A stretch of 64,000 nucleotides of DNA from an uncultured Ignavibacteriaceae bacterium (GCA_964527925.1 CAZGQO010000001.1:324808-388807), one strand, 5' to 3'; counted from the first letter of the stretch, positions 44,404 through 51,043 are shown. The notes: a model not told the origin generated them from the letters alone. A program made the numbers and translations.

Positions 44404-44760
44404 CTACAATGCATTCTTACCAGATTCTTCAGTTCTAATTCTAATTGCATCTTCAATGGTTGAAATAAATATTTTTCCATCACCAATTTGTCCAGTTTTA
44501 GCTGCTCTAATTATTGTATTAACCACTACTTCCTGCTGTGATTCAGGTACAACAATTTCGATTTTAATTTTTGGAACAAATTCAATTCGGTATTCACTGC
44601 CACGATAAATTTCAGAATGTCCTTTTTGTCTTCCGTAACCTCTGACTTCTGTAATTGTCAAACCCTGAATGCCTTCTTCAAGCAATGCATCCTTCACATC
44701 ATCAAGTTTGAATGGTCGAATGATTGCTTCAATTTTTTTTAACTTGTTTGAAAATGCCAT
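44404..44760 (-). CDS. glnB: Nitrogen regulatory protein P-II
   Basis: 118 aa. [16 protein letters not shown]-loop [18 protein letters not shown] (Tyr51 equivalent present), [15 protein letters not shown] 5 nt upstream. 14 nt after the secA stop. Confidence 0.9.
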
Positions 44761-44774
44761 ATTATCCTCTCAGA

Positions 44775-47825: not shown

Positions 47826-48205
47826 TTTACCTCTTTGTAATTTTATTAAAACTAATTAAATGACTTCTTAAATACAATTTGTTAAAAAATTTTCAATTAT
47901 ACTTTCAAGGAAGTACTTTGAGTTTCATATTTTTTGATACAGGCTTAATTAATTCACAATTATTTGAACTTTAATAGTGATTATCTTAAAAAATTTCCAT
48001 GTGAGAACCGGGAAATCATTTATTTAATATTGGATTAATGAATCAAGTGATCCATATTAACTTAGCTCTTATAATTAATTAGAACTAACCTAACCGCGAA
48101 AATCCAAATATTAAGATGAAATCATTCCAATTTATTAAATGATAAAATGACCTGAACAAAAACTTCAATTGTGTTTTTCGTTTTATTATTCAAATATTTC
48201 TGTAA

Positions 48206-51043
48206 TTGGTAATTTTGTATGTGTTAAAGAAACAGCTTATAGATTATTTAATAAGTCATTTCTCAAAAATTCTAAGCGATAAAGAACTCGAAATTTTTAC
48301 TGGCGACATCACTCCAGTATTAGATGAGGTTTTCGTCTCACCAAGAACTCTTCTAAATTTCTCCCGGATAATTCAAAATGATTATTTCATAAATTCTTAT
48401 GCAGAAAATCTGCCTTTACTTAAATTTTATGTCGAAGTGATTATAATGATTTCTGCTTTCAGTAATTATCTGACTGATATTGTTGTCAGAAATCCGGAAT
48501 TTTTATCAAGATTTATTGGCAGTGGAGAATTATATACAGATTTTAACGAACCTATTTTTGAGAAAGAGCTTGATTCAACAACCAACGCATTTAGAACCTT
48601 TAATAAGAAAATTGATGCAATTAAAAGGTTCAAAAGATTACACACCCTTAGAATTGGGCTTCGAGATATATTAAATCTTACTAACATTGAAAATACAATG
48701 TTCGAATATTCATTACTTACCAGTTCAATTTTAGATCGCGTCTTCAAGTTGGTCATCAATAGTATCAAAGAGAATAAACCTGATAGAGAAATTCCAGAAT
48801 ATTGCCTTGTTTCACTTGGAAAGCTTGGTGGACTTGAACTTAATTTTAGTTCTGATGTTGACTTGATGTGTTTTTATGATGATAACGAAAACAAGCCAGA
48901 AAACCTGGAATTATTTTATACAATTGTTAAAAAATTTATTGATGTTTGTTCAAATCCAACTAACGAAGGTTATTTATACAGAGTTGATTTTAGACTAAGA
49001 CCTGATGGTAAATATTCACCACTTGCTCGATCGATGACCTATTATCAGATTTACTATGAAAGCTATGGAAGTGATTGGGAAAAACAAATGCTCCTGAAAA
49101 TGAATTTCGTTAGCGGTTCCAAGGTTCTTTTTGAAAGATTCCAGAAGTTTGTTCATAGTTTTATTTTTCATGGAGTGTTTTTTGATTCACCTAAAGTATT
49201 TGTAAAGAGATTTAGAAATATTTATCAAAACATTATAACAGCAGATTCAACTGATGATAAAATGAACATTAAGCATTTCAGCGGCGGAATCAGAGATGTA
49301 GAATTTTCAATTCAGGTACTTCAGCTATTAAATGGGAAAAAAATTAATGATTTGAGAACTCCAAATACTATTAATGCAATAAAACAACTTGCCAGATACA
49401 AACTTATAAGCGAAAAGGAATCTAAAAGGTTAATTGACTCATACAAATTTTTACGACGAGTTGAAAATTTCATTCAATTGATGGATGATAGACAAATCCA
49501 TGCTTTGCCTAAGGACAACGAAAAAATAGTAAACCTGACAAGATTTTTAGGACTGAGAAAAAGTAAACAATTCTATTCGCAGCTTGAATTCACTCGAAAA
49601 ATTATTAAAAACTTTGCTGCAAATATTTTTGAGAGTGAAGATATTAAACAATTTGAAATTAATCGATACATCGACCCGTCGAAAGTCAAAAATCCTGAAA
49701 GTATAAAAAAACATTTCCAACTCACTCTCAACATACTGCGCGATAATTTATCTGATTTAGATGACTCAACTCTGGAGGAATTTCAAAAAGAAATTTTAAG
49801 AAGAATTAATATTTCTAGTAACCCAGAAATTTTCACTAAAAATTTTTACAGATTTATTTCTTCAATAAAAACAAAAGTTCAGATAAAGGAATTACTGACA
49901 AACAAAGGTTTACTTGAGTTAACATTATTAATTTCTGAATTATCTGAACATTTGATGACAAGTCTCATTTCCAGTCAGAGATTAATAGATCTTTATTTTT
50001 CGGGAAGACTTTTCAGTAGAGATTTTACTGAAATTGATTTTCAAAATTTAGATGAAGAACAAATTAGAATTTTCATTCTGCAGATAACTTTAAATTTTTT
50101 ACTAAAAAATTTCGATTCACAAGAAGTAAACTTTCTGCTTACAAATTTTGTTGATTCAACTTTTGAAAATTTAACTCAGGAAATCACTATTAAATACAAA
50201 CTGGAAAAAGAAGCCTACTCAATCATTGCACTTGGAAGCTATGGAACAAAAGAAATGCACTTGAAATCAGATATTGATATACTCTTTGTATTTGATAGTG
50301 AAATCGATCAAGCTAAAGCAGAAAAATTTTCATTAAACATACTCAGCAGTTTCAGAGATAAATTTAAACTTTTTGATTTCTTTCAAGCTGATTCAAAAAT
50401 TCGTCCTGAAGGGAAAGCTTCCAAATTAAGCTGGCAAATTGATGAAATGAAAAATTACATTAACTCTCGAATGCGAATTTGGGAATTTCAATCCTATACC
50501 AAAATGAGATTGGTAGATGGTTCAGAAAAAATCTTCAATACCCTTTTAGAATCTGTTAGATCAAAAGTTATTGAACTTAAGTCTGACTATATTGCAAATG
50601 AAATTAAAAAGAACAAAACTTTGATTCGTCAAAATAAAATTCACGCTGGAAGAGATTTTCTTGACCTAAAAAATTCAACAGGCGGTTTGCTCGATTTGCA
50701 ATTCACTCAACAATATCTAACTCTAATTAATAAGACCAATTTTCAGAATTTTATTGCAAGAAGTTTTATCCAATTCTGCAGCGATTATTCCAGATTCAAT
50801 AAAAATTACAGAACAAGACTTGAACAATTGTCAAGAAATTTTTATCAGATATTTACATTTATTTTACTTAATCAGATAATTACTGGAACAAAAGGACATA
50901 TTTTATCACGGAACTTTAATTCTAAATTTGTAAACCAATTTTTGAATATTTCAAATACCACAAAAATTTTCGACTACTTAAAATCACTTTTGGACGAAAA
51001 TTATCGCTTGATTAAGGAAATAAGTCCGGAGATAAACAAATGA
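48206..51043 (+). CDS. glnE: Glutamine synthetase adenylyltransferase / adenylyl-removing enzyme
   Basis: 945 aa (E. coli GlnE is 946 aa). Two nucleotidyltransferase motifs: LGKLGGLELNFSSDVDLMCFYDD (N-terminal AR domain) and LGSYGTKEMHLKSDIDILFVFD (C-terminal AT domain). The track start is TTG; an in-frame GTG at 48221 is an alternative. Confidence 0.8.
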   Translation: MVILYVLKKQLIDYLISHFSKILSDKELEIFTGDITPVLDEVFVSPRTLLNFSRIIQNDYFINSYAENLPLLKFYVEVIIMISAFSNYLTDIVVRNPEFLSRFIGSGELYTDFNEPIFEKELDSTTNAFRTFNKKIDAIKRFKRLHTLRIGLRDILNLTNIENTMFEYSLLTSSILDRVFKLVINSIKENKPDREIPEYCLVSLGKLGGLELNFSSDVDLMCFYDDNENKPENLELFYTIVKKFIDVCSNPTNEGYLYRVDFRLRPDGKYSPLARSMTYYQIYYESYGSDWEKQMLLKMNFVSGSKVLFERFQKFVHSFIFHGVFFDSPKVFVKRFRNIYQNIITADSTDDKMNIKHFSGGIRDVEFSIQVLQLLNGKKINDLRTPNTINAIKQLARYKLISEKESKRLIDSYKFLRRVENFIQLMDDRQIHALPKDNEKIVNLTRFLGLRKSKQFYSQLEFTRKIIKNFAANIFESEDIKQFEINRYIDPSKVKNPESIKKHFQLTLNILRDNLSDLDDSTLEEFQKEILRRINISSNPEIFTKNFYRFISSIKTKVQIKELLTNKGLLELTLLISELSEHLMTSLISSQRLIDLYFSGRLFSRDFTEIDFQNLDEEQIRIFILQITLNFLLKNFDSQEVNFLLTNFVDSTFENLTQEITIKYKLEKEAYSIIALGSYGTKEMHLKSDIDILFVFDSEIDQAKAEKFSLNILSSFRDKFKLFDFFQADSKIRPEGKASKLSWQIDEMKNYINSRMRIWEFQSYTKMRLVDGSEKIFNTLLESVRSKVIELKSDYIANEIKKNKTLIRQNKIHAGRDFLDLKNSTGGLLDLQFTQQYLTLINKTNFQNFIARSFIQFCSDYSRFNKNYRTRLEQLSRNFYQIFTFILLNQIITGTKGHILSRNFNSKFVNQFLNISNTTKIFDYLKSLLDENYRLIKEISPEINK

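What the first reader, a model, noticed from the sequence alone, without database searches (positions are those of the whole stretch)
44404..51043. PII (glnB) co-transcribed behind secA and divergent from glnE
glnB lies 14 nt downstream of the secA stop on the same strand with its own strong SD. The glnE gene (GS adenylyltransferase, the enzyme whose activity PII controls) starts 380 bp away on the opposite strand. Both the secA-glnB linkage and the glnB/glnE proximity are unusual relative to model organisms; PII is normally next to amtB or glnA. Together they suggest that a nitrogen-status signal is expressed with a core secretion gene. The presence of a GlnE-type adenylylation system is itself notable for this kind of low-GC lineage.
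Basis: partly seen in the sequence, partly recalled or inferred. Interest (0 to 1): 0.5.

Follow-up and report, generated by a model that had tools for sequence, protein, structure and literature searches.

The report
PII gene wired behind secA
In one order of bacteria (Ignavibacteriales), the gene for the nitrogen/energy sensor protein PII always sits a few bases behind the protein-export motor gene secA, usually ahead of a probable type IX secretion gene and opposite a GlnE-like enzyme gene; the proteins are ordinary, the conserved placement has not been described.

Summary
A canonical 118-aa PII (44404-44760, -) starts 14 nt after the stop of a complete SecA (44775-47825, -). A 945-aa GlnE-like protein with two nucleotidyltransferase modules starts 380 nt (more likely 395 nt) away on the other strand.

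The window is from an Ignavibacterium-like genome. The secA-PII adjacency is not strain-specific:
- It occurs, with gaps of about 5-24 nt, in 19 species-level genomes and one Melioribacter isolate.
- It occurs in 13 of 13 metagenome contigs carrying a PII at least 72% identical, and in none of 67 contigs with more distant PIIs, many of which carry Amt or GS signatures beside the PII.
- On a SecA tree the PII-bearing loci form one clade with one nested loss.

The divergent GlnE-like gene is present in about 15 of 21 informative loci.

Here a restriction-modification cassette has pushed it 2.6 kb away.

Best reading: a lineage-specific secA-glnB(-porW-like) operon gives a standard GlnB-type PII constitutive expression, and PII probably controls the neighbouring GlnE-like enzyme. 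The proteins are ordinary and the conserved context is new. Interest is modest. Transcripts, the GS type, glnD and amtB could not be tested.

The parts
44404..44760 (-). glnB-type PII signal protein, 118 aa, with a 6-residue N-terminal extension relative to the 112-aa relatives
   Evidence: Pfam P-II 110 bits. Best solved relatives are 2eg1 (2.1e-44) and E. coli PII 1pil/2pii (6.1e-43). Both PROSITE PII signatures are present, YRGSEY and [11 protein letters not shown]. T-loop and nucleotide/2-OG-binding residues are invariant.
44761..44774 (-). 14-nt secA-PII junction containing a purine-rich Shine-Dalgarno-like GAGAGGA
   Evidence: Read directly. Equivalent junctions of about 5-24 nt occur in all related loci; their sequence is not conserved, but most contain GAGG/AGGG/GGAG.
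44775..47825 (-). secA, the preprotein translocase ATPase, complete with C-terminal SEC-C zinc motif
   Evidence: Pfam SecA_DEAD, PP_bind, P-loop_SecA, SecA_SW and SEC-C. NCBIfam PRK12904 1031.7 bits (cut-off 814). 90% identical to an uncultured Ignavibacterium MAG.
47847..47877 (-). Candidate secA promoter, TTG-N20-TAGTTTTA, inside a block conserved upstream of secA
   Evidence: The block is conserved in the window, L001 and L084. It is the only Bacteroidetes-type promoter-like match on the minus strand between 44300 and 48300. 5 of 10 minus-strand matches in the window are intergenic. Inference only.
48206..51043 (+). GlnE-like bifunctional nucleotidyltransferase (two NTase modules), divergent from secA; the true start is probably GTG 48221
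   Evidence: Pfam GlnE 205 bits in 2 stretches plus GlnD_UR_UTase. NCBIfam GlnE equivalogs score 360 and 317 bits, below cut-offs of 625 and 487. The N-terminal half aligns to E. coli GlnE 1V4A at 4.4e-39. Catalytic motifs GKLGGLELNFSSDVD (205) and GSYGTKEMHLKSDID (677) are present.
51040..52938 (+). TMEM260-like GT-C membrane glycosyltransferase; its start overlaps the glnE stop by 4 nt
   Evidence: Pfam TMEM260-like 134 bits. Coordinates. The pair is kept in L001, L002, L007, L009, L010, L011, L014, L016 and L081.
39623..41752 (-). PorW/SprE-like TPR lipoprotein (probable type IX secretion component). In relatives it is the gene directly downstream of PII.
   Evidence: Best NCBIfam hit is NF052312 T9SS_PorW_SprE, 1.3e-48, 166 bits (cut-off 250), colinear from the N-terminus. 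Seven relatives give the same best hit at 123-189 bits. It lies directly after PII in the related loci where the downstream sequence is held. The N-terminus reads ...LNLSCG, a lipobox.
41890..43515 (-). Inserted type II restriction-modification cassette: intact N4/N6 DNA methylase (41890-42882) and a ThaI-family endonuclease interrupted by one in-frame TAA (42883-43515)
   Evidence: Pfam N6_N4_Mtase 173 bits. Pfam ThaI profile positions 1-98 and 114-203 fall on two consecutive ORFs. The stop at 43200-43198 is in the same frame as the next ORF. The related loci show no match to the cassette region at this position, only the PorW-like gene after PII.
43915..44322 (-). orf135, no family match; lies in the inserted segment between PII and the restriction-modification cassette
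   Evidence: No Pfam or NCBIfam hit. tblastn found no counterpart in any related locus.

Best explanation
In the order Ignavibacteriales, a standard GlnB-type PII gene was placed once, at the base of the clade, directly behind secA. It has been kept there as the second gene of a secA-glnB(-porW/sprE-like) transcription unit.

Shown:
- The three proteins, their geometry and the lineage-wide conservation of the tight junction.
- The canonical PII sequence, including the modifiable T-loop tyrosine and all ATP/ADP/2-oxoglutarate-contacting residues.
- The two intact nucleotidyltransferase modules of the divergently encoded GlnE-like protein.

Inferred:
- PII is read through from a promoter just upstream of secA and translated from its own Shine-Dalgarno-like site. 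The cell therefore makes a constitutive, growth-coupled amount of PII, as E. coli does with glnB, rather than a nitrogen-induced amount as with amtB-glnK.
- PII then acts post-translationally. The most likely target is the neighbouring GlnE-like enzyme, which would adenylylate and deadenylylate glutamine synthetase.
- The secretion-gene neighbours mainly provide a housekeeping promoter.

In this window a restriction-modification cassette has been inserted after PII, cutting the porW-like gene off from the unit.
For: - Identity and geometry.
- Conservation in genomes: PII lies directly after secA in 19 species-level genomes and in the isolate Melioribacter sp. OK-6-Me.
- Conservation in metagenomes: 13 of 13 contigs with PII at least 72% identical have secA directly upstream. 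None of 67 with PII at most 68% identical do, and many of those carry an Amt or GS signature beside the PII instead.
- Single origin: the PII-bearing loci form one clade on a SecA neighbour-joining tree. L023 is nested in it, and its PorW-like gene is 62% identical to that of PII-bearing L012, so L023 lost PII.
- No signal between the genes: no minus-strand terminator-like site between secA and PII, no consistent terminator after PII in relatives, and the only Bacteroidetes-type promoter-like match across the unit lies upstream of secA in a conserved block.
- Canonical PII: GlnB-type K3/E5, invariant Y51, R38, Q39, K58, G87-K90, R101, R103.
- GlnE-like: architecture and catalytic motifs; divergent position in about 15 of 21 informative loci.
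- Published I. album genome analysis found no Amt/MEP/Rh transporter and no nif genes, which would remove the usual PII partners (PMC3362086).
Against: - No transcript data were available. An internal promoter in the 3' end of secA cannot be excluded. The sigma-70 scan lists one match at 44790-44761, not above the shuffle expectation, and the promoter type of this lineage is unknown.
- The GlnE-like protein fails the NCBIfam GlnE equivalog cut-offs. It evolves fast: 47% identity where SecA is 90% and PII is 95%. NCBI annotates its relatives as hypothetical or DUF294 proteins.
- Its presumed substrate, a GS with an adenylylation loop, was not found because only this window is available.
- The glnE linkage is broken in some genomes.
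- The arrangement secA-PII-porW-like could mean more than promoter sharing.
Confidence: 0.6

Rival explanations
1. Neutral inherited synteny. PII landed behind secA once by chance, has its own promoter in the 3' end of secA, and the adjacency persists only because nothing has broken it. There is no shared regulation and no functional link to secA, the porW-like gene or glnE.
For: The arrangement is confined to one order. PII was lost in L023 with secA and the PorW-like gene left adjacent. The glnE side is rearranged in several genomes. A sigma-70-like match overlaps the secA stop at 44790-44761.
Against: The junction stays at about 5-24 nt in more than 30 loci whose SecA proteins are only 65-70% identical and whose other neighbours have changed. 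That spacing leaves no room for an intergenic promoter or terminator. Promoter-like matches in the region are not above the shuffle expectation.
Confidence: 0.2
2. Functional coupling to protein export. PII binds SecA and/or the PorW/SprE-like type IX component (or their products' partners) and tunes export of hydrolases to the cell's 2-oxoglutarate/ATP/ADP state. This would parallel amtB-glnK and nadE-glnB, where gene linkage reflects a physical complex.
For: PII is flanked on both sides by export genes wherever the arrangement exists. Conserved PII neighbourhoods have predicted real complexes before (PMC7196632). I. album is reported to lack Amt and to depend on amino acids and peptides for nitrogen (PMC3362086). 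M. roseus exoenzymes carry Por sorting domains (PMC3534657).
Against: No interaction evidence was found: no paper holds all of the terms PII, interactome, SecA and 2-oxoglutarate, and SecA is not mentioned in the Azospirillum PII network paper. This PII has no distinctive surface changes, only conservative substitutions (K9R, V30I, K34R, A49S, V53I, E54, I86V, D98). The linkage is limited to one order. The PorW/SprE assignment is below the family cut-off. PII could be lost in L023 without loss of the flanking genes.
Confidence: 0.1
3. The GlnE-like enzyme does not act on glutamine synthetase. Instead it modifies the neighbouring PII at Tyr51 (standing in for GlnD) or another target, so the divergent pair is a sensor-modifier module.
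For: The family misses the GlnE equivalog cut-offs. UniRef labels its relatives '[protein-PII] uridylyltransferase family' and NCBI labels them hypothetical or DUF294. Tyr51 and the YRGSEY site are invariant in every secA-linked PII. No GS was seen nearby.
Against: The architecture is GlnE-like, with two NTase modules each followed by the GlnD_UR_UTase-type helical domain. No HD or ACT domain was reported. The N-terminal half aligns over about 360 residues to E. coli GlnE 1V4A. GlnD models match only the short NTase motif at 51 bits. Tyr51 is also conserved in PIIs that are never modified (own knowledge).
Confidence: 0.1

Closest known systems
E. coli GlnB-GlnE (ATase) arm of the nitrogen cascade, with constitutively expressed glnB
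   Same: A canonical GlnB-type PII (K3/E5, Y51, full ligand-binding set) and a roughly 945-aa enzyme with two GlnE-type NTase modules. PII is apparently expressed from a housekeeping promoter rather than a nitrogen-regulated one (inference).
   Different: In E. coli, glnB and glnE are unlinked and neither is near secA (own knowledge). Here glnB is 14 nt behind secA and glnE is divergent from it. The GlnE-like protein is below the equivalog cut-offs. GlnD, NtrBC and a GS that can be adenylylated were not demonstrated.
glnK-amtB operon
   Same: A PII gene kept in tight, operon-like linkage with a membrane-process gene across many genomes.
   Different: The partner is secA, not amtB. The more distant PIIs recovered in the same scan are the ones with Amt signatures nearby. 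I. album is reported to lack Amt altogether (PMC3362086). The amtB-glnK link spans Bacteria and Archaea, whereas secA-glnB spans one order.
nadE-glnB conserved neighbourhood (PII-NadE2 complex)
   Same: A non-classical, conserved PII gene neighbourhood. It is a precedent that such linkage can report a physical PII target (PMC7196632).
   Different: nadE-glnB is found in widely separated prokaryotes and the interaction has been shown biochemically. For secA-glnB there is no interaction evidence and a narrow taxonomic range.
glnB-glnA operons of alpha-proteobacteria and others
   Same: A GlnB-type PII co-transcribed with another gene. GS-linked PIIs appear among the more distant hits (L109, L111, L143).
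   Different: No GS signature is present in this window or in any secA-PII locus.

Membership tests
PII (GlnB/GlnK) signal proteins | Pfam P-II domain above the gathering score | tested here: met
   110 bits vs 25, covering profile positions 2-102 of 102
PII (GlnB/GlnK) signal proteins | PROSITE-type signatures Y-[KR]-G-[AS]-[AE]-Y (T-loop Tyr51 site) and [ST]-x3-G-[DY]-G-[KR]-[IV]-[FW]-[LIVM] | tested here: met
   YRGSEY and [11 protein letters not shown] are present in the window and in every secA-linked relative. The patterns were written from memory.
PII (GlnB/GlnK) signal proteins | Conserved ATP/ADP/2-OG-binding and T-loop residues (R38, Q39, K58, G87-K90, R101, R103, Y51) | tested here: met
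   All are invariant across the 33 secA-linked PIIs. Numbering follows the alignment to E. coli GlnB.
PII (GlnB/GlnK) signal proteins | NCBIfam GlnB or GlnK equivalog cut-off | tested here: not met
   153.7 vs 202 (GlnB model) and 142.1 vs 181 (GlnK model). Both models are built around enterobacterial sequences (own knowledge).
PII (GlnB/GlnK) signal proteins | Homotrimer that binds ATP/ADP/2-OG | not testable with these tools
   Needs biochemistry.
GlnB subtype (as opposed to amtB-linked GlnK) | K3 and E/D5 at the N-terminus; not linked to amtB | tested here: met
   K3 is at 0.97 and E5 at 0.94 in the secA-linked group, against L/K/I at position 3 and M/E/T at position 5 in the other PIIs recovered. 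No Amt signature occurs in the window or the secA-linked loci.
GlnE (GS adenylyltransferase / adenylyl-removing enzyme) | Two tandem GlnE-type NTase modules, no HD or ACT domains | tested here: met
   Pfam GlnE in 2 stretches plus GlnD_UR_UTase, with the second NTase at 631-732. Homologues show GlnE+UR_UTase twice. No HD or ACT hit.
GlnE (GS adenylyltransferase / adenylyl-removing enzyme) | Catalytic G-x2-G-x2-E-...-S-D-[IV]-D motif in both modules | tested here: met
   Found at positions 205-219 and 677-691. A looser form of the pattern finds two copies in 75 of the 120 best homologues.
GlnE (GS adenylyltransferase / adenylyl-removing enzyme) | NCBIfam GlnE equivalog cut-off | tested here: not met
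   360 vs 625, 317.5 vs 487 and 285 vs 724.
GlnE (GS adenylyltransferase / adenylyl-removing enzyme) | A cognate GS with an adenylylation-site tyrosine in the same genome | not testable with these tools
   No GS signature in the 64-kb window or the related loci.
SecA | Full SecA domain set and equivalog score | tested here: met
   SecA_DEAD, PP_bind, P-loop_SecA, SecA_SW and SEC-C. PRK12904 1031.7 vs 814; TIGR00963 998 vs 800.
Operon secA-glnB | Same strand, short gap, no intervening terminator | tested here: met
   14-nt gap and no minus-strand terminator-like site between the genes. The consensus scan is weak evidence.
Operon secA-glnB | Adjacency conserved across diverged genomes | tested here: met
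   19 of 20 informative genomes of the clade, 13 of 13 close metagenome loci and 1 isolate.
Operon secA-glnB | A single transcript covering both genes | not testable with these tools
   No transcript data were available.
T9SS PorW/SprE | NCBIfam NF052312 equivalog cut-off | tested here: not met
   166 bits vs 250 in the window and 123-189 bits in seven relatives. It is the best hit in every case and is colinear from the N-terminus over about 350 residues.
T9SS PorW/SprE | Lipoprotein with TPR repeats in a lineage that has T9SS cargo | tested here: met
   Lipobox LNLSCG at the N-terminus. Multiple TPR families match. A Por_Secre_tail cargo protein is encoded in L081. Por sorting domains are reported on M. 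roseus enzymes (PMC3534657).

The most novel reading that the evidence does not exclude
In Ignavibacteriales, PII has been recruited as a regulator of protein export. At least one member is reported to lack an ammonium transporter and to live on peptides and amino acids released by secreted enzymes. PII sits between secA and a PorW/SprE-like type IX secretion gene. Its 2-oxoglutarate/ATP/ADP-dependent binding to one of these proteins would match secretion of hydrolases to carbon/nitrogen/energy status. That would be a new class of PII target, signalled by gene linkage as amtB-glnK and nadE-glnB were.
Probability: 0.1. Interest if true: 0.7.

Novelty: new variant of a known kind. Interest (0 to 1): 0.35.

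Why it matters
PII proteins are among the most widespread signal proteins. New targets have repeatedly been found by following conserved gene neighbourhoods: amtB, nadE and nif. A PII kept between two protein-export genes across a whole order is a clean, testable lead, and at least one member of that order is reported to lack the usual Amt partner. At the least it shows how a lineage gives PII constitutive expression. At most it points to nitrogen/energy control of secretion. It also flags an Ignavibacteria-wide GlnE-like family that public annotation pipelines name inconsistently. Cultured members (Melioribacter, Ignavibacterium) exist for experiments.

Tried and rejected
- Rfam at E up to 1 over 43000-52000 found only two chance-level hits, so there is no known leader or riboswitch.
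- Consensus promoter and terminator scans gave counts no higher than in shuffled sequence and were used only as weak negatives.
- My own hairpin-plus-T-tract scan after PII in 29 loci mostly hit inside the next coding region. There is no conserved terminator; only L008 has a convincing one.
- Literature searches for secA-glnB linkage, a PII-SecA interaction, nitrogen regulation in Ignavibacteria and GlnE distribution found nothing on point. The two genome papers do not mention PII, GS or GlnE.
- The look-up of the identical GlnE-like protein (P0001) for more flanking DNA returned no record.
- Motif searches for GS and Amt in the window and the Ignavibacteria loci were negative, so the completeness of the cascade stays open.
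- The alignment meant to define the boundaries of the restriction-modification insertion was uninformative, because the intergenic DNA is too diverged.
- I considered that the GlnE-like protein is a GlnD and rejected it: no HD or ACT domains, and GlnD models match only the NTase motif.
- I considered that this PII is a divergent PII-like protein and rejected it: all canonical residues are present.
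Full report
**What is there.**
- A 118-aa ORF at 44404-44760 (-).
- A 1016-aa ORF at 44775-47825 (-).
- A 945-aa ORF at 48206-51043 (+).

Pfam and NCBIfam identify them as follows.
- The first is a P-II protein (E 8.5e-32).
- The second is a complete SecA. It has the DEAD, preprotein-binding, P-loop, wing/scaffold and SEC-C domains, and it scores above two SecA equivalog cut-offs.
- The third is a GlnE-like protein. It has two GlnE-type nucleotidyltransferase stretches plus a GlnD_UR_UTase helical domain.

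The secA stop is followed by 14 nt (tctGAGAGGAtaat) and then the PII ATG. The secA ATG lies 380 nt from the first possible glnE start codon. Homologues start M/V-LKKELK..., which corresponds to GTG 48221, so 395 nt is more likely.

**Which organism.** SecA is 90% identical to that of an uncultured Ignavibacterium MAG. The next-best loci are Ignavibacteriaceae, Melioribacteraceae and other Ignavibacteria, followed by Kapabacteria, Zixibacteria and Bacteroidia. G+C is about 29-35% across the window. The 'low-GC lineage' is thus Ignavibacteria, not Firmicutes.

**Is the adjacency conserved?** I searched one genome per species with SecA and kept the 80 best loci with 8-kb flanks.
- tblastn and ORF calling show a PII gene directly after secA in L001-L014, L016, L018, L019 and L021. 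That is 19 species, with SecA 65-90% identical to the window.
- The junction is about 5-24 nt in all of them. Its sequence is not conserved, but it is usually purine-rich.
- No locus outside this group has a PII within 8 kb of secA.
- On a neighbour-joining tree of SecA the PII-bearing loci form a single clade. L024 is nested in it, but its contig ends inside secA. L023 is also nested and has secA followed after 72 nt by the gene that normally follows PII.
- The L023 copy of that downstream gene is 62% identical to the copy in PII-bearing L012, so L023 is a secondary loss.
- The cultured Melioribacter sp. OK-6-Me has the same arrangement.

The reverse test used PII as the query against metagenome contigs.
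- All 13 loci with a PII at least 72% identical (G+C 0.33-0.38) have secA directly upstream.
- None of the 67 loci with PII at most 68% identical does.
- Many of those 67 instead carry an Amt or GS signature beside the PII, which is the classical context.

The secA-linked PII is therefore a distinct orthologous group with a fixed, lineage-specific position.

In the related loci where the downstream sequence is held, the gene after PII is a 700-880-aa TPR lipoprotein.
- In the window its orthologue is at 39623-41752.
- Its best NCBIfam match is the type IX secretion lipoprotein PorW/SprE (E 1.3e-48, 166 bits). The match is colinear from the N-terminus but below the 250-bit cut-off.
- Seven relatives give the same best hit at 123-189 bits.
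- Type IX cargo exists in this lineage. A Por_Secre_tail protein is encoded in L081, and Por sorting domains are reported on M. roseus hydrolases (PMC3534657).

The conserved unit is therefore secA, PII, then a PorW/SprE-like gene. In the window about 2.6 kb has been inserted between PII and that gene.
- orf135 has no family match.
- A ThaI-family restriction endonuclease is interrupted by a single in-frame TAA.
- An N4/N6 DNA methylase is intact.

**Transcription.**
- The consensus scan found no minus-strand terminator-like site between secA and PII. Promoter-like matches in the region are no more frequent than in shuffled sequence.
- After PII there is no conserved terminator in relatives.
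- Immediately upstream of secA a block is conserved between the window, L001 and L084. It contains TTG-N20-TAGTTTTA, which resembles the Bacteroidetes -33/-7 promoter type.
- That is the only such match on the coding strand between 44300 and 48300. Half of the ten minus-strand matches in the window are intergenic.

These points are consistent with one promoter upstream of secA driving PII as well. This is inference; no transcript data were available.

**The PII protein.**
- It is canonical, with best solved relatives 2eg1 and E. coli GlnB.
- Both PII signature motifs are present in every secA-linked copy.
- All T-loop and ATP/ADP/2-oxoglutarate-binding residues are invariant, including Tyr51.
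- Residues 3 and 5 are K and E, the GlnB-type pattern. The other PIIs recovered in the same scan mostly have L/I and M/T there.
- Group-specific changes are conservative: K9R, V30I, K34R, A49S, V53I, E54, I86V and D98.

Nothing suggests a new biochemical kind of PII.

**The GlnE-like protein.**
- It has the GlnE architecture: two NTase modules with intact G-x2-G-x2-E...S-D-[IV]-D motifs at 205 and 677.
- Its N-terminal half aligns over about 360 residues with the E. coli GlnE fragment 1V4A.
- No HD or ACT domain was reported, so it is not GlnD.
- It scores well below the three NCBIfam GlnE equivalog cut-offs.
- It diverges fast: 47% identity to L001, where SecA is 90% and PII is 95%.
- Its relatives are named inconsistently by public sources: 'hypothetical', 'DUF294 nucleotidyltransferase', '[protein-PII] uridylyltransferase family' or 'GS adenylyltransferase'.
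- Where a source names an organism, the 120 best relatives are from Ignavibacteria, Melioribacteraceae or Bacteroidota MAGs and isolates. The family is therefore normal for this lineage rather than an oddity.

The gene is divergent from secA in 10 of 13 genome loci with enough upstream sequence, in the Melioribacter isolate, and in 4 of 7 metagenome loci. In an I. album-like MAG it keeps its other neighbours (TMEM260-like, DUF4837, ftsH, tilS) while secA-PII is elsewhere. The glnE-PII proximity is thus frequent ancestral synteny, less strictly kept than secA-PII.

**What could not be settled.** No GS or Amt signature occurs in the window or in the Ignavibacteria loci held. The I. album genome paper reports no Amt/MEP/Rh transporter and no nif genes, and it infers dependence on amino acids and peptides for nitrogen (PMC3362086). 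It does not mention PII, GS or GlnE. Whether GlnD, NtrBC or a GS that can be adenylylated exist in this genome remains open.

**Interpretation.** The best-supported reading is a lineage-specific operon that gives a standard GlnB-type PII constitutive, growth-coupled expression. PII would then act post-translationally, most plausibly on the neighbouring GlnE-like enzyme and through it on GS. There are three rivals.
- The adjacency is neutral synteny and PII has an internal promoter.
- PII is functionally coupled to SecA or the PorW-like protein. PII neighbourhoods have predicted complexes before (PMC7196632), but no such interaction is reported.
- The GlnE-like enzyme acts on PII or another target rather than on GS.

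**Verdict.** The components are ordinary members of known families, and the functional meaning of the linkage is untested. I rate it a new variant (gene context) of a known system with modest interest. The upside is real if PII proves to regulate export.

Noticed in passing
window 42883-43515 (-) and 41890-42882 (-): Type II restriction-modification cassette. The ThaI-family endonuclease is split by a single in-frame TAA (43200-43198), with Pfam profile positions 1-98 and 114-203 on two ORFs. The adjoining N4/N6 methylase is intact. This could be a decaying system leaving an orphan methylase, or a sequencing error. It lies where relatives have only a short PII-porW-like spacer.
   Followed up: partly
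window 43915-44322 (-): orf135 has no Pfam or NCBIfam family and tblastn found no counterpart in any related locus. It lies in the inserted segment just downstream of PII.
   Followed up: partly
window 51040-52938 (+): A TMEM260-like (protein O-mannosyltransferase-like, GT-C) membrane protein gene overlaps the glnE stop by 4 nt, which suggests translational coupling. The glnE-TMEM260-like pair recurs in L001, L002, L007, L009, L010, L011, L014, L016 and L081 but not in L083. It is an unexplained partner for a GlnE-like enzyme.
   Followed up: partly
window 47847-47877 (-): A conserved block just upstream of secA contains TTG-N20-TAGTTTTA, resembling the Bacteroidetes -33/-7 promoter type. In the window, 5 of 10 coding-strand matches are intergenic, which hints that Ignavibacteria use this promoter type.
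   Followed up: partly
window 35302-37245 (+): A CN_hydrolase (N-carbamoylputrescine amidase-like) gene and a Porphyromonas-type agmatine deiminase gene lie side by side. Together they would form an agmatine-to-putrescine route that releases ammonia.
   Followed up: no
window 38209-39626 (-): A monofunctional peptidoglycan transglycosylase (38880-39626) and a Schlafen/AlbA_2 protein (38209-38877) follow the PorW-like gene. The Schlafen-type gene also follows it in Melioribacter L083, so the conserved cluster may extend further.
   Followed up: no
window 26782-30109 (-): Start of a cell-wall/division cluster: MraW methylase at 29180-30109 and a PBP with PASTA domain at 26782-28887. A long same-strand gene run continues down to about 13081.
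   Followed up: no
L023 11036-11109: This Melioribacteraceae MAG is nested within the PII-bearing clade, yet secA is followed after 72 nt directly by the PorW-like gene. It is a clean natural PII deletion, useful for asking whether GlnE was lost with it.
   Followed up: partly
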